A DNA stretch of 15,204 nt from a bacterium (GTDB lineage: Bacteria > Eisenbacteria > RBG-16-71-46), in NCBI GenBank assembly GCA_043779265.1, contig JAYWEM010000195.1:1-15204 (forward strand), read 5' to 3'. The notes beneath the pieces were generated by a model. The model ran no database searches. It saw nothing but the letters and a program-made list of their open reading frames with translations, and had not been told where the DNA came from. Position 1 is the first letter of the stretch; each line of letters starts with the position of its first letter. The position numbers and the translations under genes were made by a program. Shown piece after piece: positions 21-14,980 of this stretch.

Positions 21-104
21 CTGACCCTCCCGAGGGAGGGTTACCTATCAGATGGCAGGACGATGGCCCCACGGGTGACATCTTAGATGGCTTGATGCGT
101 GACA

Positions 105-134
105 TTGACGTGACGTGCGGTCCGTTGCTAGCGT
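105..134 (+). promoter_or_regulatory. Putative sigma70 promoter for the membrane-protein operon
   Basis: TTGACG (105-110), 18-nt spacer, TAGCGT (129-134) with extended -10 TG at 126-127; lies upstream of the SD/TTG start at 191. Confidence 0.5.
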
Positions 135-190
135 CCGCTCGCTTCCGCAGGGATGTCGCACCCGATGTGGACTCGAACCGGGGAGGCTCG

Positions 191-1390
191 TTGCATCGCC
201 CTCGCACCGCTCGACGAAGTTGGTGGCTGTACGGATGTCTTGGCCTGGTGGCGTGGCTGGCCATCACGAGCAGCGCGTCCGCACAGGAGACGGAGCAGAT
301 CGCGAGAGCACCGCTCGCCCCGTCGGGTCTGACGTTCTCCGACATTCCGAATGACGCGGGCCGGGCCATCAGCCTGGCTTGGACGCTGTCTCCGGATGAC
401 ACCGCCGCCAATGGACTCGTGAGCAGCTATCAGATCGAACGCGGGGCGAGCCCGGCAGGTCCCTGGGAGGTCCTCGACACGCTGCTCGCGGGCGTGACGG
501 CCAAGACGGACAACACGCTGCGGCGCAACGAGCGCTACTTCTATCGGATCTCGGCGTTCGGACCGGGTGGCCTGACCCCCGCGGGCGCCGCCGCCGGGCC
601 CGCGATCGCGCGCTCGACTTGGTTCAACTCGACTCGGTGGAGCGTCCTGACGTTCATGGTGACGTTCTTCCTCTTCGTCCTCTACTACACTTCGATGGCC
701 CAGGCGGGGAAGAAACCGTTCGTCCGGCGCCTCGCGGGCATCGACGCCATCGAAGAGGCCATCGGTCGTGCCACCGAGATGGGCCGTCCGGTGCTCTACA
801 TCCCCGGCGTGACGGACATCGATGATATCCAGACCGTCGCAGGCTTGGTGATCCTCGAAAGCGTGGCCAAGATCACCGCTCGCTACGACACGCCGATACG
901 CGTTCCGGTCGCCTATCCGATTCCGTTCACGATCGCGCAGGAGATGGTGAAGAGCGGCTACCTGAATGCCGGCAGCCCCGAGCGATTCGAGCCCGATAGC
1001 GTGCGGTTCGTCTCTCCGGAGCAGTTCGCATATGTCGCCGCGATCAGCGGCATCATGCTTCGTGAAAAGCCGGCGGCCCATATCTACATGGGTGCGTTCT
1101 TCGCCGAGTCGCTGCTGCTCGCGGAGACCGGATTCTCGACCGGTGCCATCCAGGTGGCGGGTACCGCGAACGTGCACCAGTTGCCCTTCTTCGTCGTCGC
1201 GTGTGACTACACGCTGATCGGCGAGGAGCTGTATGCGGCGAGTGCGTACCTCTCGGGCGAACCCAAACTGGTCGGCGGCCTCAAGGGCGCCGACCTGCTC
1301 AAGATCCTCATCATCGTGTTCGTACTGGTGGGCAGCGGGCTGGAGTCAGCCGACATCCATTGGGTCTCGGACTGGGCCAGAACCCGCTAG
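191..1390 (+). CDS. Membrane protein with signal peptide, fibronectin type III-like domain and C-terminal DUF6754-type domain
   Basis: ORF track gives 92..1390. The likelier start is in-frame TTG at 191 (SD GGAGG 182-186), giving a signal peptide MHRPRTARRSWW...SSASA|QE. FN3-like pattern (AP..L....D.PND.G.AISLAW...YQIER...RYFYRISA), then a TM helix, RRLAGIDAIEEAIGRATEMGRPVLY...DYTLIGEELYAASAYLS and a C-terminal TM, recognised as DUF6754-type. Confidence 0.8.
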   Translation: MHRPRTARRSWWLYGCLGLVAWLAITSSASAQETEQIARAPLAPSGLTFSDIPNDAGRAISLAWTLSPDDTAANGLVSSYQIERGASPAGPWEVLDTLLAGVTAKTDNTLRRNERYFYRISAFGPGGLTPAGAAAGPAIARSTWFNSTRWSVLTFMVTFFLFVLYYTSMAQAGKKPFVRRLAGIDAIEEAIGRATEMGRPVLYIPGVTDIDDIQTVAGLVILESVAKITARYDTPIRVPVAYPIPFTIAQEMVKSGYLNAGSPERFEPDSVRFVSPEQFAYVAAISGIMLREKPAAHIYMGAFFAESLLLAETGFSTGAIQVAGTANVHQLPFFVVACDYTLIGEELYAASAYLSGEPKLVGGLKGADLLKILIIVFVLVGSGLESADIHWVSDWARTR

Positions 1391-1399
1391 GAGAACAGC

Positions 1400-2050
1400 G
1401 TGAAGCGTGAGTTGCCTCTGTTCCTGACGGCGGTGATCGGCTTGTTCATGATCCTGTCGTTCTTCGTCCCGCACCAGTGGGTGAGCGTGCCGGCCGACTT
1501 CCTGCAGCAGTGCGCCGTCATCGTGGTCGCGTTCGGCTACGTCCTCGGTGGCGCGAACGTGCTTCGCGTGAACCTCGACGGGATCTCACGGCGGCAGACG
1601 GACTGGCCGTACAAGATCGTGCTGGTGGTCGCCGTGTTGGGCACGATGTTCTTCGGATTCAAGGAGGGGTCGGGCTGGCAGGATCCTTCCACCGTCTCGA
1701 TGTGGATCTACAACCGGCTGTACTCGCCGATGCAGGCCACGATGTTCTCGCTGCTGGCGTTCTTCATCGCCTCGGCGGCGTTCCGTGCCTTCCGAATCCG
1801 CACGTTCGAAGCCGGCCTGCTCGCGATCGCCGCGCTCATCGTGATGCTCGGCCGAGTCCCGGTGGGCGATCAGATGACGGGCTTCCTGCCGGAATGGATG
1901 CGCCTCTCGAGCCTCCAAGAGTGGATCATGGGCAACCCGCAGAACTCGGCCAAGCGCGCCATCCTCATCGGAGCCGCGATGGGCGTGATGGCGACCGGTC
2001 TGCGCGTCATCCTCGGTATCGAGCGCTCCTATCTGGGCGGGGGGGACTGA
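1400..2050 (+). CDS. Uncharacterised integral membrane protein (~6 hydrophobic segments), DUF6754 operon member
   Basis: GTG start with SD AGGAG overlapping the upstream stop; 216 aa, strongly hydrophobic; GC3-rich codon usage; 9 nt after gene 1. Confidence 0.85.
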   Translation: MKRELPLFLTAVIGLFMILSFFVPHQWVSVPADFLQQCAVIVVAFGYVLGGANVLRVNLDGISRRQTDWPYKIVLVVAVLGTMFFGFKEGSGWQDPSTVSMWIYNRLYSPMQATMFSLLAFFIASAAFRAFRIRTFEAGLLAIAALIVMLGRVPVGDQMTGFLPEWMRLSSLQEWIMGNPQNSAKRAILIGAAMGVMATGLRVILGIERSYLGGGD

Positions 2051-2051
2051 C

Positions 2052-2885
2052 ATGAACCTCTCGTGGCTGGAGAAACTCGACCGTCGCTGGTTGTTCCTGA
2101 TCGTCGCGCTGCTGGTCCTGGGGCCGCTGCTTCGGCCCCTCGGACTGCCTCTGACGACGTCGGCTCCGGTGAAGCAGTTCCACGACACCGTGGCGGGTGT
2201 GCCGGATGGCTCGATCATCCTCCTGTCGTGCGATTACGACCCGGGCGCCAAGCCCGAACTCGTGCCGATGACCAAGACTGCGCTTCGCCAGCTGTGGGAC
2301 AAGCAGTGCAAGCTGGTGATCACGTGTCTGTGGAATGGCGGGCCGGGTCTGATCGATGCCACGATCGAGGAGGTCGCGAACGAGTATCGCGCCAAGGGCG
2401 TGCCTCTCGAGTACGGCAAGGACTACGTGTTCCTCGGATACAAGGCCGGCAACGAGGCCGTGATGGTGCTGATGGGGCAGGGCATTGCCAATGCCTTCCC
2501 GCGCGACCACCGCGGCAATGTCACCAGGAGCCTGCCGCTCATGACCAAGGTGCGTGACTACTCGACATTCCCGTTGCTGGTGAACATCTCGGCCGGCTAC
2601 CCGGGCACCAAGGAGTGGGTTCAGCAGGTGAACACCCGGTTCCAACTTCCGATGGTCTCCGGATGCACCGCCGTGAGCGCGCCCGAGTACTACGCGTATC
2701 TGCAGGCGGGCCAGCTCAGCGGGCTGCTGGGCGGCATGGCGGGCGCGGCGGAGTACGAAAAGATCCGTGAGGAGAAGGGCTCGGCCACCAAGGGCATGGA
2801 CGCGCAGTCATTGGCGCACATCTTCATCGCGCTCTGCATCATCATGGGTAATGTCGTGATGTGGACGAAGGGGGGCAACCGATGA
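2052..2885 (+). CDS. Uncharacterised membrane-anchored protein (N- and C-terminal TM, alpha/beta central domain); probable distant paralog of the DUF6754 domain
   Basis: ATG 1 nt after the upstream stop with SD GGGGGA; 277 aa; motifs DYDPG, DYVFLGY, GLLGGMAGAAEYE, GMDAQSLAH. Confidence 0.85.
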   Translation: MNLSWLEKLDRRWLFLIVALLVLGPLLRPLGLPLTTSAPVKQFHDTVAGVPDGSIILLSCDYDPGAKPELVPMTKTALRQLWDKQCKLVITCLWNGGPGLIDATIEEVANEYRAKGVPLEYGKDYVFLGYKAGNEAVMVLMGQGIANAFPRDHRGNVTRSLPLMTKVRDYSTFPLLVNISAGYPGTKEWVQQVNTRFQLPMVSGCTAVSAPEYYAYLQAGQLSGLLGGMAGAAEYEKIREEKGSATKGMDAQSLAHIFIALCIIMGNVVMWTKGGNR

Positions 2886-3550
2886 CATCCGATTTCGGCG
2901 TCTGGGTTGCGGCTCTGCTCACGCTCTTCGTCTTCTCGTTCCTGTACAAGGACAACCCGTTCTACAAGTTCGCTGAGCATCTCTTCGTGGGGGTCTCGGC
3001 GGGCTACTACATCGTCCTCAACTTCTGGACGGTGATCTACACGAACCTGTGGAACCCGGTCGTCGCGGCGTTCGCCGGAGGCCTTCCCGGCGGTCCGTTC
3101 GCGGCCTCTCAGGGCGACTATCGCGCGTGGTACATCCTGCCGGGGATCCTCGGCTTCCTCCTGTTCACGCGCCTCTCGAGCAAGATCGACTGGATGTCCC
3201 GGTGGTCGCTGGCCGTCATCATCGGCGTCTACGCGGGCCTCAAGACGACGGGCTTCGCGCAGGGCGATCTGGTGGAGCAGGTCGCCGCCAGCATCCAGCC
3301 GCTGTGGATCCCGGGCGACCTGCTGGGCTCGATCGACGCGATCATCTTCACGGTCGGTCTCATCGCCTCGCTGCTCTTCTTCTTCTTCAGCCGCGAGCAC
3401 AAGGGCGCCCTCGGAGCCGCCTCGAGGCTCGGCGTGCTGTTCCTGATGGTGAGTTTCGGTGCCGGGTACGGCTACACCGTCATGTCGCGAATCTCGCTCC
3501 TGATCGGCCGCTTCCAGTTCCTGCTGGAGGACTGGCTCGGGATGAAGTGA
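2882..3550 (+). CDS. Uncharacterised integral membrane protein (~6 TM), DUF6754 operon member
   Basis: Start placed at ATG 2882 (ATGA overlap with the upstream stop; ORF track starts at 2861); 222 aa; motifs SFLYKDNPFYKFAEHLFVGVSAGY and FLMVSFGAGYGYTVMSRISLLIGR. Confidence 0.85.
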   Translation: MTSDFGVWVAALLTLFVFSFLYKDNPFYKFAEHLFVGVSAGYYIVLNFWTVIYTNLWNPVVAAFAGGLPGGPFAASQGDYRAWYILPGILGFLLFTRLSSKIDWMSRWSLAVIIGVYAGLKTTGFAQGDLVEQVAASIQPLWIPGDLLGSIDAIIFTVGLIASLLFFFFSREHKGALGAASRLGVLFLMVSFGAGYGYTVMSRISLLIGRFQFLLEDWLGMK

Positions 3551-3626: not shown

Positions 3627-4385
3627 ATGAGGCTCCATGTCGATTCCCCGGCCGCTGTCGGCGAGCAGATGGCCATCGATCGAGCGGCGTTCGAGCGTGC
3701 GATGCGTGTAGGCCTCGCCGGGCCGGTGTTGCGGCTGTTCCGCTTCGAACCCGCTGGGATCACGCTCGGGGCGTCCCAGGTGGCGGAGATGGAACTCGAC
3801 CTCGCGCGCTGCACCGAGGACGGCGTCGCCTGGGCGCATCGCCCGACGGGCGGACGAGCGATCTTCCACGGCGAGGAGTGGACGTTCTCCCTGCTGGCGC
3901 GGCTCGGCGACGGGGGATGGGCGGCCGATGCGCGTGCCGCGTATCAGCGGACCAACGCGTTGATCGGCCGGGCACTGGTGAGGCTCGGCGCGCCGGTCGC
4001 GCTCGACGAGGGGAGCGCGAAGGGTGTGGGCGCGCCGCGCAGCCGTGGCGGGGCTGCGCCGCCTTGCTTCGCCACGAGTGCCAGGCACGAACTGACTCTG
4101 GGGGGGCGCAAGTGCGCCGGTATCGCGCAACGCGTGGGGCGCTGCCATGTATTGCAGCAGGGGAGCCTGCTCATCGGGCCCGGGCATGAACGCTTGGCGG
4201 ACTACGCGGCTGGACCGCCGGAGAGACAGGACGAACTGCGGGAATCGATGCGTCACTCGTCGGTGGAGATGGGCCCGTGGATCGGGGACGGTCGCACGCT
4301 CGATGACCTGGCGGAGGCGATCGAAGCCTGTTCGGAGGGCCCCGTTCGTCGGACACAGGCCGCGTCGGTCCGCTTGCCCCACTGA
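3627..4385 (+). CDS. Lipoate/octanoate-protein ligase family protein (BPL/LplA/LipB catalytic domain, LipM-like, no C-terminal LplA domain)
   Basis: Family motifs QMAID, LRLFRF.P..ITLG.SQ, HRPTGGRAIFH, CF, GRKCAGIAQR (catalytic Lys) and LQQGSL; 252 aa. Confidence 0.85.
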   Translation: MRLHVDSPAAVGEQMAIDRAAFERAMRVGLAGPVLRLFRFEPAGITLGASQVAEMELDLARCTEDGVAWAHRPTGGRAIFHGEEWTFSLLARLGDGGWAADARAAYQRTNALIGRALVRLGAPVALDEGSAKGVGAPRSRGGAAPPCFATSARHELTLGGRKCAGIAQRVGRCHVLQQGSLLIGPGHERLADYAAGPPERQDELRESMRHSSVEMGPWIGDGRTLDDLAEAIEACSEGPVRRTQAASVRLPH

Positions 4386-8428: not shown

Positions 8429-9439
<1,011 letters not shown>

Positions 9440-9447
<8 letters not shown>

Positions 9448-10420
9448 AGCGTTGCTCGAGGTCTCGGGACTCAAGAAGTACTTCCCGATCAAGAAGGGCC
9501 TGCTCTCCAGAGTCGTCGGGCATGTGAAGGCCGTCGATGGCGTCAGCTTCCAGGTGCGCCAGGGTGAGACGCTGGGGCTGGTCGGCGAGAGCGGTTGCGG
9601 CAAGACCACGACCGGGCGCTGCATCCTGCGGCTGATCGAGCCCACCGAGGGCAAGGTCCGCTTCCAGGGCCGCGAGGTCACGGAGATGGGGAAGCATGAG
9701 CTGCGCGCGATGCGTCGCGAGATGCAGATCGTCTTCCAGGATCCCTACTCGTCGCTCAATCCCAGGCTCACCGTCGGCAGCATGTTGGGCGAGGCGCTCG
9801 AGATCCATCGGCTCGCCAAGGGTCCTGCGATCCGCGAGCGGGTCGCCGAACTGCTTCACATGGTCGGACTGTCGCCCGATCATCAGCGGCGCTACCCGCA
9901 CGAGTTCTCCGGGGGCCAGCGCCAGCGGCTCGGCATCGCTCGGGCCCTCGCCGTGAGCCCCAAGCTGATCGTGCTCGACGAACCGGTCTCCGCGCTCGAT
10001 GTGTCGATCCAGGCGCAGATCATCAATCTTCTGCAGGAGCTGCAGAGCAGGCTCGGCTTGACCTACCTGTTCATCGCCCATGATCTCTCGGTGGTCGAGC
10101 ACATCAGCGACCGGGTCGCTGTCATGTATCTCGGACGGATCGTGGAGCTGGCGGATCGTGCGACGCTCTATCGCGACCCTCGCCACCCGTATACGCAGTC
10201 GTTGCTGTCCGCGGTTCCGGTGCCCGATCCCGAGCGACGCAAGTCGCGCATCGTCCTCAAGGGAGATGTCCCCAGTCCTGCCTCGCCGCCCTCGGGTTGC
10301 AGCTTCCATCCCCGCTGTTTCCTGGCGGAGGAGCGTCAGGGATTGGCTCGCTGTTCGGGTGAGGAGCCGATGCTGCGTGAGGTCTCACCGGGTCACTGGG
10401 TGAGCTGTCACTTCGCCTGA
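9440..10420 (+). CDS. oppF: Peptide ABC transporter ATP-binding protein (OppF/DppF family)
   Basis: Start placed at GTG 9440 (SD GGAGG 9429-9433); [40 protein letters not shown]...C...CH. Confidence 0.96.
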
Positions 10421-10422
10421 GG

Positions 10423-10724
10423 CGCGATTCGGGGGATTCGCCCCACGAGTCGTGGTGGAGCGGGGCACTTGCCGCACTTGTGCGATGCGCGCACGGGCAT
10501 CCTGCGATGGTCCGTGCTCTCGTGCGTCAGCACCCGGCCGCTGAATTCGCAGGCTCGTGACGCATTCGCAAGCAGATGCGCTCCGAGTGCGGGGCGGTCC
10601 ACCCGATGGCACGCAGGTTGCCCTACTCGTCTGCACATGCCGCGGCGGTGGCAACGCCGCCCCGGCCCAGACGTTCCCTGGGTGACTCGTGCTTTGCGGT
10701 CTGTGGGCTGATCCCCCTATCGCG
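10423..10724 (+). ncRNA. Candidate large structured non-coding RNA (~300 nt), family not recognised
   Basis: Nested helices found by eye: 10423-28/10719-24, 10431-38/10710-17, 10440-43/10705-08, 10444-51/10684-91, 10454-59/10598-603, 10472-80/10584-92, a long arm at 10481-10570, and a GCAA-tetraloop hairpin at 10639-66. Most wobble pairs are G-U on the + strand. No credible CDS in the interval. Confidence 0.5.
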
Positions 10725-10847
10725 AGCGAAGGAGTCTTACGGTCCGCACACGGTCGACCTGGGGACGAACATCGGGCCCCGAAGCCCTCGGCGCATTGGC
10801 CATCGTGCTCGACTCGCGCGACCGCGGAACGGGGCCCATGAAGTACC

Positions 10848-10891
10848 CCCTGAGCCGTTCTCTCCACATGAGAGAGCGGCTCAGGGTCTTT
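10848..10891 (+). terminator. Intrinsic terminator-like hairpin
   Basis: 17-bp stem CCCTGAGCCGTTCTCTC (10848-64) / GAGAGAGCGGCTCAGGG (10870-86) with one G-U pair, 5-nt loop, followed by TCTTT. Confidence 0.7.
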
Positions 10892-10902
10892 CCCGGTGTG
10901 CG

Positions 10903-10931
10903 TTGACCACCCCCTGACCCGCTGGTAGGTT
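10903..10931 (+). promoter_or_regulatory. Putative sigma70 promoter of the BMC operon
   Basis: TTGACC (10903-08), 17-nt spacer, TAGGTT (10926-31) with extended -10 TG (10923-24); 45 nt upstream of ATG 10977 and just downstream of the terminator. Confidence 0.65.
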
Positions 10932-10976
10932 GCCGTTTCGCCCTTCTCCCGTAGGGGGAGAGGCGGATCGGAGCCC

Positions 10977-11294
10977 ATGGATCGTCCTCGCAGGCGGCAG
11001 GCACTCGGCATGGTGGAGACTCTCGGATTCGTGGCCTCGGTCGAGGCGGCGGATGCCATGGTCAAAGCTGCCGAGGTGACGCTCGTTCGCTACGAGGTCA
11101 CTCGGGATGCCCGGGTCACGGTGCTCGTGCGAGGGGAGCTGGCCTCGGTCGAGGCGGCGGTCGCCGCCGGATCGGCTGCGGCGGCTCGCGTCGGCGAGTG
11201 TCTTCATGGCCACGTCATCCCGGCTCCGGATTCCGAGCTCGAACCCATTCTCGGGGCTGCGGCCCCTGCTGCGACCAAGCCACGGAGGACGTGA
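10977..11294 (+). CDS. BMC-H microcompartment shell hexamer protein (Pfam00936), atypical pore loop
   Basis: [22 protein letters not shown]...VTVLVRGE...V.AAV.AG...HVIP.P; SD GGAG 10970-73. Confidence 0.92.
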
Positions 11295-11590
11295 TGGAAG
11301 AAGCCCTGGGCCTCATCGAGACGCGCGGGTTCGTGGCCATGGTCGAAGCGACCGATGCCATGGTGAAAGCCGCCCGAGTCGAACTGGTGCATTACGAGAA
11401 GATCGGCGGCGGCTATGTCACGGCGATCGTGCGTGGCGATGTCGCAGCCGTGCGAGCCGCCACGGAGGCCGGCGCCGCCGCCGCCGCCAAGGTGGGCGAG
11501 GTGGTGAGCGTGCACGTGATCCCGCGTCCGCACGGCCAGCTCGAGGACGTGCTCCCGATTCGCCGTCCCGAGCCTGCCGGCAAGAAGTAG
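11294..11590 (+). CDS. BMC-H major shell hexamer protein (EutM/PduA/CcmK family)
   Basis: Start at ATG 11294 (SD GGAGG 11284-88, overlaps the upstream stop); canonical [38 protein letters not shown]. Confidence 0.96.
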
Positions 11591-11593
11591 CCG

Positions 11594-11908
11594 ATGATCC
11601 TGGCGCAGGTCATGGGCACGGTCGTGTCCACGCGCAAGGACTCGGGGCTCACCGGGCTCAAGCTACTCATCGTCCGCGAGGTCGACGCCGGCTTCCAGCC
11701 GGCTGGGAATCTCGTGGTGGCGGTGGATGCCGTGGGCGCCGGCGCCGGTGAGTTGGTACTCGTCGCGGCCGGCTCCTCGGCGCGTCTGACGGACGTCTCC
11801 AAGGACCGCCCGGTGGACCATGTCATCTGCGGCATCGTCGACACCGTCGAGACCAGCGGCCGCGACGTCTGGCGCAAGGGCCAGGGTGCGGTGAAGGGTA
11901 AGGCGTGA
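11594..11908 (+). CDS. BMC-P vertex pentamer protein (EutN/CcmL family) #1
   Basis: MILAQVMGTVVSTRK...L.G.KLLIV...VAVDAVGAGAGELVLV..GSSAR...PVD..ICGIVD. Confidence 0.96.
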   Translation: MILAQVMGTVVSTRKDSGLTGLKLLIVREVDAGFQPAGNLVVAVDAVGAGAGELVLVAAGSSARLTDVSKDRPVDHVICGIVDTVETSGRDVWRKGQGAVKGKA

Positions 11909-13326
11909 GCGTCGATCGGGGCCGCGTCGAGGCCATCGTGGCCGAGGTGCTGACCCGGCTCGAGGGCGATCCCTCGCGCACGACGGTGGGCCGGGATGCG
12001 CCGCTCGGGGTGCATGCGTCACTCGATGCCGCAGTCGAAGGAGCGAGGCGCGCTCAGAAGGCCTACGAGGCGACACCCGTCGCGGTGCGCGAGCAGATCA
12101 TCGCGAGCGTGCGTCAGACGATGGCGACGCAGTACGAGACGCTCTCGAAGCTCGCGGTCGATGAGACGGGACTCGGCCGCGTCTCCGACAAGATCCTCAA
12201 GAACAAGCTGGTCACCGAGCGCACTCCGGGGGTCGAGGACCTCGAGCCCCACGTCTGGACCGGGGATCATGGGCTGACGCTGATGGAGCGCGCGCCCTAT
12301 GGCGTGATCGCGGTGATCACGCCGGTCACGAATCCGTCCGAGACCATCCTCAACAACGGCATCTCGATGGTGGCGGGCGGGAACACCGCGGTGTTCTGCC
12401 CGCACCCGAATGCACGCCGCACCTCGATCCTGACGATCGACCTGTTCAATCGGGCGGCGCGCCGGGCGGGGGCGCCCGAGCCTCTGCTGCACACCGTGGC
12501 CGAACCGGCGCTCGAAGTGGCGCAGGCGTTGCTTCGCTATCCGGGTCTCCGACTGAACGTCGTGACGGGCGGGCCGGGCGTGGTGAGGGAGGCGATGGCC
12601 TCCGGCAAGAAGTCGATCTGCGCGGGCCCGGGCAATCCGCCGGCCGTCGTCGATGAGACGGCGGATCTCGAGCAGGCCGGACGCGATCTCGTCATGGGCG
12701 CCTCGCTCGACAACAACATCATCTGCACCGACGAGAAGGAAGTGCTCGCGGTGTCGATCATCGCCGACCGCCTCAAGGAGACGATGGCGAGGAACGGTGC
12801 CGTCGTCCTCGCCTCGCATCAGGTGGAGCAACTGCGCAAGCTCGTGATGGAGTACGAGAAGGGGCCGCGCCAGCACGGTGGCGTCAACAAGAAGTACGTC
12901 GGCAAGGACATCCAGGTGATCCTGCGTGACGCGGGCATCCCATGTGGACCCGACAAGCGCCTCGCCCTGTGCGAGGTGGACGCCGATCATCCGTTCCTGT
13001 GGACCGAGCTGATGATGCCGATTCTGCCGCTGGTTCGGATGCGGAATGTCGATGAGGCGATCGACTTCGCGCTGCTCGTCGAGCACGGCTATCGGCACAC
13101 GGCCAGCATGCACTCGCGCAACATCGACAAGCTCTCGCGCATGGCGCGCCTGTGCGACTGCTCCATCTTCGTCAAGAACGGCCCCAACGCCTCAGGCCTC
13201 GGCTGGAATGGCGAGGGCCCCACCAGCTTCACGATCGCGAGCCCGACAGGAGAGGGAATGACGACCGCCCGTTCGTTCACGCGCCTGAGGCGCTGCACAT
13301 TGGTCGACCGGTTCCGCATCGTATGA
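11905..13326 (+). CDS. BMC-associated CoA-acylating aldehyde dehydrogenase (EutE/PduP family) with N-terminal encapsulation peptide
   Basis: GTGA overlap; ETGLGR, PGVEDL, APYGVI..ITPVTNPSET, VTGGPGVV, AGPGNPP, DNNIIC(274)TDEKE catalytic Cys, ELMMP, EHGYRHTA, SFTIASPTGEG, FTRLRRC; N-terminal amphipathic helix VEAIVAEVLTRL. Confidence 0.95.
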   Translation: MSVDRGRVEAIVAEVLTRLEGDPSRTTVGRDAPLGVHASLDAAVEGARRAQKAYEATPVAVREQIIASVRQTMATQYETLSKLAVDETGLGRVSDKILKNKLVTERTPGVEDLEPHVWTGDHGLTLMERAPYGVIAVITPVTNPSETILNNGISMVAGGNTAVFCPHPNARRTSILTIDLFNRAARRAGAPEPLLHTVAEPALEVAQALLRYPGLRLNVVTGGPGVVREAMASGKKSICAGPGNPPAVVDETADLEQAGRDLVMGASLDNNIICTDEKEVLAVSIIADRLKETMARNGAVVLASHQVEQLRKLVMEYEKGPRQHGGVNKKYVGKDIQVILRDAGIPCGPDKRLALCEVDADHPFLWTELMMPILPLVRMRNVDEAIDFALLVEHGYRHTASMHSRNIDKLSRMARLCDCSIFVKNGPNASGLGWNGEGPTSFTIASPTGEGMTTARSFTRLRRCTLVDRFRIV

Positions 13327-13877
13327 ACCTGATCGCCCTTGCCGCAGTCGAGTGTTCGAGCATCGCCCAGGGCGTTGTGGTCGCCGACGGCATGCTGAAG
13401 CACGCCGAGGTCACGCTGCTCGCCTCGACAACGTTGAGCCCCGGCCGATTCTGGGTGTTGATCGGCGGTTCGGTCGCTGAGGTGCGAGCGTCGCATGGCC
13501 GCGGCATCGTGCTCGCAGCGGACACGCTCATCGATCAGCTCTTCCTGCCCCAGCTCGATTCACAGGTCCTGCCGGCGTTCGCCGGCGTCGCGACGTGGGG
13601 CGAGTCGGATGCACTCGGCGTGATCGAGACCCTGAGCGCCGCCTCCGCCATCGTCGCTGCCGACACGAGCGTCAAGGCGGCGACCGTGAGCCTGCGTCGC
13701 ATCCGCCTCGCGGATGGCATCGGCGGCAAGGGCGTGGTCGCCCTTTCGGGCGCCGTCCACGATGTCCAGGCGGCGGTCGAGGCCGGCGCCCACTCGGCCC
13801 GCACGCGTGGTCTCCTCGCACGCTCGGTCGTCATCCCCCGCGTCGAGCCGCAACTGCGCGCCCGATTGTTCGGCTGA
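13323..13877 (+). CDS. BMC-T tandem-domain shell trimer (PduT-like)
   Basis: Start at ATG 13323 (ATGA overlap), 184 aa; domain 1 E.SSIAQG...ADGMLK.A.V...PGRF..LIGG.V; domain 2 ALGVIET...ASAIVAAD..VKAA.V....IRLA.GIGGKG...SG.V.DV.AAV. Confidence 0.93.
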   Translation: MNLIALAAVECSSIAQGVVVADGMLKHAEVTLLASTTLSPGRFWVLIGGSVAEVRASHGRGIVLAADTLIDQLFLPQLDSQVLPAFAGVATWGESDALGVIETLSAASAIVAADTSVKAATVSLRRIRLADGIGGKGVVALSGAVHDVQAAVEAGAHSARTRGLLARSVVIPRVEPQLRARLFG

Positions 13878-13884
13878 TCGGGTC

Positions 13885-14169
13885 ATGAATCTGGGGCGCG
13901 TCATCGGGACGGTCGTCTGCACGCAGAAGGTCCCGGCGTGGAAGGGCGAGCGCCTGTTGCTCGTCCAGCCCTGCGACCCCGCGGGCGAGCCGTTGGGAAC
14001 CAGGCCGGTCGCAGCGGTCGATTGTGTCTCGGCCGCGCCGGGTCAGCTGGTGTTCTTCGTTCGGGGACGCGAGGCCTCGACGGCGCTCGGGAATCCGGAC
14101 AATCCGGCGGATGCGGCCATCGTGGGCCTCGTCGATTCGCTCCGGCATGCGCCGGGGGCGACCCGCTGA
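13885..14169 (+). CDS. BMC-P vertex pentamer protein (EutN/CcmL family) #2
   Basis: Start at ATG 13885; MNLGRVIGTVVCTQK...G.RLLLVQP...AVD.V.A.PGQLV..V.GREA...PADAAIVGLVD; 94 aa. Confidence 0.93.
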   Translation: MNLGRVIGTVVCTQKVPAWKGERLLLVQPCDPAGEPLGTRPVAAVDCVSAAPGQLVFFVRGREASTALGNPDNPADAAIVGLVDSLRHAPGATR

Positions 14170-14441
14170 TGTTCATCGCGCGCGTCGTGGGGGAGGTCGT
14201 CGCGACCACCAAGCACCCGCACCTCCACGCACGGAAACTGCTGCTGGTGCAGGCGGAGCCCACGCCGGGGAGGCCCGCCTCGCAGCCCGTGATCGCGGTC
14301 GATTCGGTCGATGCCGGAATCGGGGACCGCGTTCTGGTGGCGGATGAGGGCAATGGTGCAGCTCAGGTGCTCAAGGCTCCTCGCGGCCCGGTTCGCACGG
14401 TCATCGTGGGGATCGTGGACGCCACGACGGAGGGAGCTTGA
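14169..14441 (+). CDS. BMC-P vertex pentamer protein (EutN/CcmL family) #3
   Basis: Start at ATG 14169 (TGATG overlap); MFIARVVGEVVATTKHP.L...KLLLVQ...IAVDSVDAGIGDRVLV.DEGNGA...PVRTVIVGIVD; 90 aa. Confidence 0.93.
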   Translation: MFIARVVGEVVATTKHPHLHARKLLLVQAEPTPGRPASQPVIAVDSVDAGIGDRVLVADEGNGAAQVLKAPRGPVRTVIVGIVDATTEGA

Positions 14442-14524
14442 GAACCCGTTTCGCCTTACGCGGCGATTTGGCGTAGATTCCCCGGACTCTGGGTGGGAGG
14501 GGTTTCGAGCCTGCCACTGGTGGA

Positions 14525-14631
14525 CGAGTGCTGGGATGTACTCGGAGCAGCCGGTCCCAGGATCGGCTGCAGCATCGAGTCCCAGGACTCGAGAACCTTC
14601 GGATGCTCATGTCGCCGGTTCTTCCGGCGAT
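14525..14631 (+). promoter_or_regulatory. Structured 5' leader (four hairpins) upstream of the HU/IHF gene
   Basis: Hairpins at 14525-44, 14547-70, 14575-92 and 14611-31; two share the apex GTCCCAGGA. Confidence 0.35.
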
Positions 14632-14665
14632 GGGTGATGGACGGTTTCTTCAGGGAGGACGGATC

Positions 14666-14980
14666 ATGACCAAGGCGGACCTGGTGGAGCACATCTCCAC
14701 ACAGACCGGGGTCTCCCGGAATCACACCGCGATCATCGTCGACCAGCTTCTGGAGTCCGTTTGCAACGCCCTCAGCGAGGGCAAGCATCTCGAGATCCGC
14801 GGTTTCGGCACGTTCAAGGTGCGGGAGCGTCGCGCGCGTCGCGCGCGCAACCCGCGCAGCGGCACCGAGGTCCTGGTGCCGGCCAAGCTCGTGCCCGTGT
14901 TCAAGCCCAGCAAAGAGCTCAAGACGCTCGTGCTCGGCGGAGAGTCACCTGAACCGGTTGCCAACGAGGCGACCGTCTAA
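14666..14980 (+). CDS. HU/IHF family DNA-binding protein (IHF-beta-like)
   Basis: Start at ATG 14666 (SD GGAGG upstream); MTKADLV...LEIRGFGTFKV...ARNPRSG...PVFKPSKELK; 104 aa. Confidence 0.95.
   Translation: MTKADLVEHISTQTGVSRNHTAIIVDQLLESVCNALSEGKHLEIRGFGTFKVRERRARRARNPRSGTEVLVPAKLVPVFKPSKELKTLVLGGESPEPVANEATV

What the first reader, a model, noticed from the sequence alone, without database searches (positions are those of the whole stretch)
10423..10724. Unrecognised ~300-nt multi-branched structured RNA between oppF and the microcompartment operon
Seen: a consistent set of nested helices starts 2 nt after the oppF stop. Closing stems: CGCGAT/ATCGCG (10423-28/10719-24), GGGGGATT/GATCCCCC (10431-38/10710-17), GCCC/GGGC, CACGAGTC/GACTCGTG (10444-51/10684-91). 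A multiloop then carries (a) a ~150-nt rod: GGTGGA/TCCACC (10454-59/10598-603), CCGCACTTG/CGAGTGCGG (10472-80/10584-92), TGCGA-TGCG/CGCA-T-TCGCA (10481-89/10561-70), CACGGG/CTCGTG, CCTGCGA/TCGCAGG (10501-07/10547-53), TGGTC/GGCCG, GTGCT/AGCAC; (b) a looser hairpin at ~10606-38; (c) a GCAA GNRA-tetraloop hairpin at 10639-66; (d) a short hairpin at 10667-81. Most imperfect pairs are G-U on + and would be A-C on -, which favours a + strand RNA; a strong terminator lies ~125 nt downstream. I find no diagnostic motif of RNase P RNA, tmRNA, SRP RNA, or TPP/cobalamin/c-di-AMP riboswitches. Inference: a new ncRNA class or a structured non-autonomous element. Any functional link to the adjacent BMC operon is speculative.
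Basis: partly seen in the sequence, partly recalled or inferred. Interest (0 to 1): 0.8.

Follow-up and report, generated by a model that had tools for sequence, protein, structure and literature searches.

The report
Half-size 6S RNA under sigma-54 control
Many bacteria of the uncultured phylum Eisenbacteria carry, besides their normal 6S RNA (the decoy that parks RNA polymerase), a second, half-length copy with its own sigma-54 promoter that has lost the parts that grip the housekeeping sigma factor, so it may be a new kind of polymerase decoy, although binding has not been shown.

Summary

The conserved unit is a sigma-54 promoter (10607-10622), a ~95-nt hairpin (10673-10767) and terminator hairpins. 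The downstream microcompartment operon has a separate sigma-70 promoter. The hairpin covaries and is single-copy here. It was found in at least 109 of 151 Eisenbacteria genomes, nearly always behind a sigma-54 motif (79 of 80 loci), with changing neighbours.

Deeper-branching copies align to Rfam's 6S model below threshold. They keep the closing stem, the P2 helix and the pRNA start (E. coli U44 = U10712), while 81-98 model positions (apical arm and most of the bubble) are skipped. A full-length 6S gene lies elsewhere in 95 of the 109 genomes.

Best reading: a half-size 6S paralog that binds RNA polymerase without the sigma-70 contacts (core or sigma-54 holoenzyme) and re-partitions it when sigma-54 is active. 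Homology is well supported through relatives, though the window's own copy is not recognisable as 6S. Expression and binding are untested. No description was found in ten literature searches.

The parts
9425..10420 (+). oppF-like ABC ATPase, upstream neighbour (not part of the RNA)
   Evidence: Pfam ABC_tran + oligo_HPY; upstream of the RNA in 43 of 43 family-type loci with enough flank, but replaced by gpmI, a CAAX protease and others in other families
10431..10443 (.).
   Evidence: Similar motifs in the first 120 nt after the oppF stop in 20 of 26 relatives vs 6.4 expected; the pattern was written after seeing the sequences
10607..10622 (+). sigma-54 (-24/-12) promoter; predicted start about 10633
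   Evidence: 11 of 11 on my consensus score; motif >=9/11 upstream of 79 of 80 cores vs 6.5 expected and 0 of 25 full-length 6S genes; rpoN in G000 and in 119 of 121 near-complete phylum genomes; consensus and -12 to +1 spacing recalled
   Evidence: Folds in the predicted transcript; distance from the -12 element to the core varies 17-163 nt among relatives; not alignable across the family
10673..10767 (+). conserved core hairpin = closing half of a 6S RNA (P1 closing stem, internal helices, P2, short cap)
   Evidence: 94.3% of cells paired, 11 of 21 pairs with two-sided changes, 0 of 500 shuffles, 32 sequences; similar on 40 model-fitted sequences; 6S model alignments of relatives
10710..10717 (+). 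unpaired GAUCCC strand; U10712 matches E. coli U44, the pRNA start
   Evidence: E. coli U44 aligns to model position 45, as does the U of GAU in L123/L127/L128; A-U kept in 36 of 40 aligned copies; U44 as start site from PMC8876501 passage
10774..10837 (+). second hairpin (GGGCCC stem), conserved in family f1; other families have a plain terminator-like hairpin here
   Evidence: 8-bp stem in the consensus of 27 family sequences; distant copies
10848..10892 (+). strong hairpin with short U tail, likely terminator
   Evidence: 17-nt arms, 94% complementary; not called by the terminator scanner
10903..10931 (+). separate sigma-70-type promoter (-35, extended -10) for the microcompartment operon
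   Evidence: Same motif downstream of the core in 46 of 52 family loci (0.5 expected) and 23 of 28 other loci (0.3 expected)
10977..11294 (+). first BMC-H gene of the downstream operon (neighbour only)
   Evidence: Pfam BMC; BMC-H downstream in 47 of 50 family loci

Best explanation
The locus holds a stand-alone small RNA gene that arose from a 6S RNA duplicate. An enhancer-binding protein (not identified) activates sigma-54 polymerase at 10607-10622. The transcript (about 10633 to 10845-10890) folds into a ~95-nt hairpin, which may be trimmed out. The hairpin keeps the half of 6S that mimics downstream DNA (closing stem and P2) and the unpaired template strand with the pRNA start. The arm and bubble strand that mimic the -35 and -10 elements for sigma-70 are replaced by a 15-24-nt cap. 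It most likely still docks in the RNA polymerase cleft, but without sigma-70 selectivity: core enzyme, sigma-54 holoenzyme, or sigma-70 holoenzyme at low affinity. It may be released by short pRNA synthesis from U10712, and so shifts or stores polymerase when the sigma-54 signal is on. Shown here: conservation, covariation, promoter and terminator architecture, independence from neighbours, homology to 6S in relatives. Inferred: transcription, processing, polymerase binding, pRNA synthesis, physiological role.
For: Model R1, built only from 27 family-f1 sequences, found one strong copy in most genomes of five other families. Rfam's 6S model independently hit those same coordinates as 103-104-nt matches in 9 of 32 f11 genomes (E 2.9e-5 to 0.039), and in 4 of 20 and 5 of 20 loci in all-family scans, with 81-98 model positions skipped in the middle. 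Weight matrices trained only on full-length 6S closing stems rank G000's own 6S first genome-wide. They score 20 of 40 short copies outside f1 above the best non-6S site of that genome. The pRNA-start A-U is kept in 36 of 40 copies. The sigma-54 motif precedes 79 of 80 cores, and the next gene has its own promoter. A 78-nt B. subtilis 6S-1 lacking the -35 region still binds polymerase (about 10-fold weaker) and templates pRNA, and P2 contacts beta and beta' (PMC8876501). The short RNA is kept in 9 of 9 genomes of genus g23, where the full-length 6S is missing from its zapA-rny slot in 4 of 4 loci read.
Against: The window's own copy gets no 6S match and ranks 8379 of 10857 with the 6S stem matrices; none of 9 f1 copies passes that test. 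The 6S link therefore runs through relatives. All 6S-model scores are below the gathering score (at most 34.3 vs 46.4). The best-conserved part, the closing stem P1, is reported dispensable for polymerase binding, and the functional B. subtilis truncations keep both bubble strands, whereas this RNA has almost no 3' bubble strand (PMC8876501; folds). One paper states that 6S does not bind core (PMC11077062); another reports weaker core complexes (PMC1874619). There are no expression data. In E. coli, cutting the distal apical stem abolished detectable binding (PMC8876501).
Confidence: 0.57

Rival explanations
1. It is a 6S-derived RNA repurposed to bind something other than polymerase: a nuclease or RNA-binding protein that recognises the 6S closing stem, or a protein that reads the family-specific cap.
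For: P1 is the most conserved helix across all families (97% paired, several invariant pairs), yet is dispensable for polymerase binding (PMC8876501). The cap is near-invariant within families but differs between them. A second set of short hairpins with the same outer stem and unrelated tops exists.
Against: Conservation also covers P2 and the exact pRNA-start dinucleotide, which a stem-binding protein would not need. No candidate partner gene lies nearby in any context examined.
Confidence: 0.2
2. It is a base-pairing small RNA whose unpaired C-rich strand (GAUCCCC) acts as an anti-Shine-Dalgarno seed on target mRNAs, like C-rich-seed sRNAs such as RsaE/RoxS (recalled).
For: The strand is unpaired, C-rich and conserved. 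Sigma-54-driven base-pairing or sponge sRNAs are common (GlmY/GlmZ and NfiR in the search listing).
Against: In G000 there is no complementary site of 12 nt or more. Of 67 sites of 10 nt, one lies before an ATG-started frame; of 12 sites of 11 nt, none (one genome, crude test, no control). The seed is only about 6 nt inside a long rod, and the same bases are explained as the 6S template strand.
Confidence: 0.13
3. It is a cis-acting leader or attenuator for the microcompartment operon.
For: BMC-H follows in 47 of 50 family loci, in f2 and some f3, and in a distinct metagenome variant ahead of a pduL-type BMC operon.
Against: Terminator hairpins and a separate sigma-70 promoter lie between the RNA and the next gene in 46 of 52 and 23 of 28 loci. 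The same RNA precedes sppA (f10, f11, f17), an OPT transporter (f13) or a glycosyltransferase (f3). No alternative terminator/antiterminator pairing appears in the consensus fold.
Confidence: 0.05
4. The reader's 300-nt multibranched RNA is the functional molecule, for example a read-through 3' UTR of the opp operon.
For: It folds at z -5.0 in isolation, and oppF ends 2 nt before it.
Against: It is not conserved, it is unstable in longer context, it spans a perfect sigma-54 promoter, and it breaks the covarying hairpin.
Confidence: 0.02
5. It is a decaying, non-functional 6S duplicate or a non-autonomous mobile element.
For: A few genomes hold tandem or extra copies (G033, G004, G008).
Against: One copy in most genomes, covariation, a 32-nt stretch matching exactly in 53 genome records, and a dedicated promoter. 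No exact match to two patterns in viral contigs.
Confidence: 0.03

Closest known systems
6S / SsrS RNA (Rfam RF00013), including the B. subtilis 6S-1/6S-2 paralog pair
   Same: Closing stem, the helix next to it, P2 and the pRNA-start position align to the model in relatives; occurs as a second gene beside a normal 6S
   Different: 88-106 nt instead of 160-200 (PMC8414754); apical -35-like arm and most of the 3' bubble are absent; below the gathering score; own sigma-54 promoter, while 0 of 25 full-length Eisenbacteria 6S genes have one within 200 nt; not in the zapA-rny slot
Engineered truncated B. subtilis 6S-1 RNAs 6S78 and 6S82cp (PMC8876501)
   Same: Lack the -35 region, similar size, still bind polymerase and template pRNA (passages)
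   Different: They keep the whole central bubble and shorten both arms; this natural RNA keeps the full closing arm and loses most of the bubble's 3' strand
Ms1 RNA and CoRP RNA (RNA polymerase core binders; PMC11077062)
   Same: Precedent for 6S-related RNAs that bind polymerase without the primary sigma factor (passages)
   Different: About 300 and 516 nt, actinobacterial; no Rfam match to any such family here. The paper found one type of abundant polymerase-binding RNA per species, whereas here two forms coexist
Sigma-54-dependent sRNAs (GlmY, Qrr, CrcZ, Pxr; mostly recalled, GlmY/GlmZ seen in search listing)
   Same: Promoter type and stand-alone intergenic gene with terminator
   Different: No sequence or structure match in Rfam; those act by base pairing or protein sequestration and have no 6S stem

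Membership tests
6S RNA (RF00013) | Scores above the Rfam gathering threshold (46.4 bits) | tested here: not met
   Window copy: no hit; relatives 21-34.3 bits
6S RNA (RF00013) | Length about 160-200 nt, rod with two arms | tested here: not met
   Core 88-106 nt in 40 aligned copies
6S RNA (RF00013) | Closing stem with the conserved 6S sequence and pairing | tested here: met
   Met in relatives: model alignments and 20 of 40 copies outside f1 above the genome background; paired and covarying. The window's own sequence has drifted (rank 8379 of 10857)
6S RNA (RF00013) | P2 helix followed by an unpaired 5' bubble strand carrying the pRNA start | tested here: met
   E. coli U44 and the U of GAU share model position 45; A-U in 36 of 40; unpaired in consensus fold
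6S RNA (RF00013) | Large central bubble with a -10-like 3' strand | tested here: not met
   Only 15-24 nt lie between the two P2 strands; 0-5 unpaired bases on the 3' side in most folds
6S RNA (RF00013) | Apical arm with the -35-like element for sigma-70 region 4 | tested here: not met
   81-98 model positions skipped in every alignment
6S RNA (RF00013) | Binds housekeeping holoenzyme and templates pRNA | not testable with these tools
   Needs binding and transcription assays
Ms1 / CoRP RNA | Binds RNA polymerase core | not testable with these tools
   No assay available
Ms1 / CoRP RNA | Sequence/structure match and size (about 300 / 516 nt) | tested here: not met
   No Rfam match; size
SRP RNA (RF00169, RF01854) | Model match / helix-8 motif | tested here: not met
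   No match at this locus; a normal SRP RNA lies elsewhere in 23 of 30 relatives
tmRNA / RNase P RNA / riboswitches | Model match | tested here: not met
MITE / REP element | Many dispersed copies per genome | tested here: not met
   One copy in G000; one match in 101 of the 110 positive genomes
Sigma-54-dependent sRNA gene (architecture) | -24/-12 promoter, terminator, rpoN present | tested here: met
   by sequence only

The most novel reading that the evidence does not exclude
This is a natural 6S derivative re-aimed from sigma-70 holoenzyme to sigma-54 holoenzyme or to free core: a promoter-mimic RNA made by the very polymerase form it then captures. It would form a feedback loop and a fourth class of polymerase-binding RNA after 6S, Ms1 and CoRP, and in genus g23 it may be the only 6S-type RNA left. 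The sigma-70-promoted short hairpins with the same outer stem would be further members of a family of minimal polymerase decoys.
Probability: 0.3. Interest if true: 0.9.

Novelty: new variant of a known kind. Interest (0 to 1): 0.72.

Why it matters
6S RNA is treated as a roughly 180-nt decoy specific for the housekeeping holoenzyme, and the papers read list only three classes of abundant polymerase-binding RNA. A half-size natural paralog conserved across most of a phylum has discarded exactly the sigma-70 contact elements and moved under sigma-54 control. It would be a natural deletion experiment on what polymerase recognises, and possibly the first RNA decoy tied to the sigma-54 system. It is directly testable in vitro with E. 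coli enzymes, and the pRNA start is predicted. It also shows that Rfam thresholds hide short 6S relatives, which could be sought in other phyla.

Tried and rejected
Expression: no RNA holder was listed. The three runs laid were contigs of uncertain RNA status from relatives at 80% likeness. One 250-nt contig happens to span leader to terminator, but contigs cannot show ends or strand; not used as evidence.

Profile HMMs of the 6S arms against G000 were underpowered: the genome's own 6S scored only E 1.1. The weight-matrix test failed for the window's copy.

SRP identity was considered because G000 has no SRP hit, and rejected. Being the genome's only 6S was rejected. A recalled likeness of the stem ends to type I-E CRISPR repeats and to the 16S 3' end was not pursued beyond the target scan. 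A coding reading was rejected by eye: no start codon follows the AAGGAG in the cap, and the ATG after the second hairpin is missing in 5 of 27 sequences.

The generic promoter scanner sees only sigma-70 sites and found none. Three records with non-Eisenbacteria NCBI labels carry family-type copies; I did not count them as evidence for other phyla. No other phylum could be searched with the models. Viral contigs gave 0 and 0 matches.

In one search one row had wrong coordinates; that alignment was redone and not used. The regex missed the six f10 loci and three of five f4/f5/f17/f18 loci, so they are not in the 79 of 80. By eye, four of the five f10 loci with enough flank match the strict motif and the fifth has a near-match. 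Weak model hits judged to be chance after reading (L210, L212, L249-L252, L256, L258, L259, L261, L264, L265, L269) were dropped.

Barrick 2005 (PMC1370762) was not held. The 2014 survey of 6S distribution (Wehner et al., recalled) was not read. Supplementary Data 2 of PMC8217296, which bears on the MIC7 label, was not read.

Full report
Setting. The window is contig C195 of a 3.4-Mb genome. Records that share the element's 32-nt core are mostly titled Candidatus Eisenbacteria. The finding lies between an oppF-like gene (9425-10420) and a microcompartment operon that starts with two BMC-H genes.

Observation. The six helices I checked are complementary as stated. The 302 bases fold at z -5.0 on + and -3.0 on -, and Rfam has no match there. 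The fold, however, is private to this genome. Rod (a) alone has z -1.3, and in the whole intergenic context the closing pairs have probability 0.00-0.12. The equivalent stretch in 26 family members has median z -1.1; 4 of 26 make a similar closing helix, and the closest relative keeps 29 of 44 pairs. The closing helix pairs a G-rich palindrome near the oppF stop with a C-run inside the real RNA.

What is conserved. A BLAST of 10200-11100 against 60 relatives hit oppF, BMC-H and a non-coding stretch starting at 10673. A search with 10668-10850 matched 79 of 88 family genomes, one of them only by short hits. Alignment shows a ~95-nt hairpin with a nearly invariant top, then a second hairpin. The region 10423-10672 is not alignable except for a sigma-54 -24/-12 motif. 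The motif scored at least 9 of 11 upstream of 79 of 80 cores (6.5 expected from shuffles) and upstream of 0 of 25 full-length 6S genes (nine loci were missed by my pattern and are not counted). rpoN is in 119 of 121 near-complete phylum genomes. Downstream of the terminator hairpins a sigma-70-type promoter precedes the next gene in 46 of 52 family loci and 23 of 28 others (0.5 and 0.3 expected). A transcript started at the predicted site folds into the conserved hairpin with pair probabilities 0.65-0.91 at the three pairs checked. Kin are not independent, so these counts show conservation, not significance.

Range. Model R1 (27 family sequences) matched 104 of 151 phylum genomes. Model R2 (32 diverse cores) matched 110 of 151. 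After reading the weak hits, one (G113) belongs to a second type, leaving 109; these tallies include G000 and the unpublished G038. Model R3 on 39 chosen genomes added copies with a sigma-54 motif in f7, f10, f17 and f18, and one in f6 with a near-match motif. None was found in the f9, f12, f14, f15 and f16 genomes searched. Covariation on the MAFFT alignment of 32 cores: 94.3% of cells paired, 11 of 21 pairs changed on both sides, 0 of 500 shuffles as high, slid controls 39-51%; the structure was partly drawn from these sequences. Neighbours change: oppF/BMC in f1 (43 of 43 and 47 of 50), gpmI/sppA in f11, CAAX protease/OPT in f13, gpmI/BMC or glycosyltransferase in f3, sppA downstream in f10 and f17. 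G000 has one copy. A metagenome pattern scan gave 21 loci. Eight carry a variant that the matching pattern did not find in 206 phylum genomes; its neighbour proteins are labelled Ca. Eisenbacteria by NCBI. I cannot say that the RNA occurs outside that group.

Identity. In all-family Rfam scans the short hairpin of relatives matched 6S in 4 of 20 and 5 of 20 loci (26-34 bits, below the 46.4 threshold). Each alignment covers the closing stem, P2 and the start of the bubble, then skips 81-98 model positions. In the phylum-wide RF00013 search, 9 of 32 f11 genomes gave a second, 103-104-nt hit at the coordinates of this RNA. E. coli U44, the pRNA start (PMC8876501), aligns to model position 45, as does the U of the conserved GAU; this is U10712 in the window, and the A-U is kept in 36 of 40 copies. 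Only 15-24 nt lie between the P2 strands. Matrices trained on full-length 6S stems rank G000's own 6S first in its genome and score 20 of 40 short copies outside f1 above the best other site. They score 0 of 9 f1 copies that high, and the window's copy ranks 8379 of 10857. The ten metagenome copies also pass but were selected by a similar pattern and are not counted. The window's copy is thus tied to 6S through a chain: BLAST within f1, R1 to other families, RF00013 on those. A full-length 6S lies elsewhere in G000 between zapA-like and rny-like genes (gene names from my reading of the proteins). It was found in 95 of the 109 genomes (93, two more, which shows that the search can miss genes). 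In genus g23 none was found in 9 of 9 genomes, and the zapA-rny gap is too short to hold one in 4 of 4 loci read, while the short RNA is present in 9 of 9.

Mechanism. In 6S RNA the -35-like element lies in the apical arm and the -10-like element in the 3' bubble strand; P2 contacts beta and beta', and the terminal stem is dispensable for binding (PMC8876501: abstract, introduction and passages). This RNA keeps the terminal stem, P2 and the template start, and lacks the two sigma-70 elements. A 78-nt B. subtilis truncation without the -35 region still binds at about a tenth of the affinity and templates pRNA, though an E. coli apical truncation lost binding. I therefore infer a polymerase decoy without sigma-70 selectivity, induced through sigma-54 (confidence 0.57; about 0.85 for 'real sigma-54 RNA gene derived from 6S'). 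Against this stand the near-absence of the 3' bubble strand, the strong conservation of a helix that binding does not need, and conflicting reports on 6S-core binding (PMC11077062 passages; PMC1874619 passages). Rivals are a decoy for another stem-binding protein (0.2), an anti-Shine-Dalgarno sRNA (0.13; a crude scan found no strong target) and a leader of the BMC operon (0.05).

Known or new. It fails membership of RF00013 on score, length, bubble and apical arm, and meets it on closing stem, P2 and start position: it is derived from and may work like 6S, but is not a canonical member. Ten full-text searches (listings and abstract starts only) showed no natural half-size or sigma-54-driven 6S RNA. 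Passages of PMC8414754 and PMC4227106 give 160-200 nt and mention only full-size second copies. Subscription papers and the 2014 6S survey were not seen. PMC8217296 lists MIC2-7 loci in its main text (passages); the MIC7 label for this operon comes from earlier notes and was not checked against the supplement.

Verdict. Observation partly confirmed, interpretation partly supported. The real feature is a previously uncatalogued, nearly phylum-wide, half-size 6S paralog under sigma-54 control, of untested function. Novelty: new variant of a known kind. Interest 0.72.

Noticed in passing
L134, L157 (f3); L159, L160, L162 (f11); L135 (f18); L161 (f14); L205 (f4); L206 (f13); L211, L213 (f1); L218 (f5); L246, L266 (f8); L248 (f3); L263 (f6): A second set of ~95-120-nt hairpins shares the outer stem and a U run but has unrelated tops, several behind sigma-70-type promoters. 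They may be further short 6S relatives; no Rfam 6S hit, and none was found in G000.
   Followed up: partly
L277-L280 (genus g23, zapA-rny gap): The full-length 6S gene is missing from its usual slot in 4 of 4 loci, and was not found elsewhere in the genomes searched, while the short RNA is kept.
   Followed up: partly
L035 (G033:C82), L142 (G004:C124), L026/L095 and L217 (G008), L125 (G163): Extra copies: a tandem duplication with a sigma-54 motif before each copy (G033), a diverged second copy 3.6 kb from the SRP RNA gene (G004), two copies in G008 (one beside a transposase-like HTH frame), and a degenerate copy in G163.
   Followed up: partly
L235, L238 (metagenome): A distinct variant of the RNA lies directly upstream of a pduL-BMC-H-BMC-H-BMC-P-AldDH operon, a second association with a microcompartment locus.
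   Followed up: partly
window 10977-14980: Seven-gene shell plus aldehyde dehydrogenase operon followed by an HU/IHF gene. In f17 the RNA is followed by sppA and an HU/IHF gene (L141), suggesting the BMC genes took sppA's place. Earlier notes call it MIC7.
   Followed up: partly
window 92-3550: DUF6754 protein followed by three membrane-protein-like frames without Pfam match, then a lipoate-ligase-like gene at 3627-4385.
   Followed up: no
G000 whole genome: No SRP RNA match although 23 of 30 relatives have one; probably an assembly gap (92% complete).
   Followed up: no
families f14 and f16: Most genomes hold two rpoN matches, and the sigma-54-driven short RNA was not found in those searched.
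   Followed up: no
window 10495-10578: An inverted repeat (10501-10507 / 10547-10553) and an adjacent motif 30-45 nt upstream of the promoter are kept in G001; possibly DNA sites for the activator or IHF.
   Followed up: no
L208 (G109:C85): A 123-nt sub-threshold 6S match that is neither full-length nor of the sigma-54 type: an intermediate-length 6S-like RNA.
   Followed up: no
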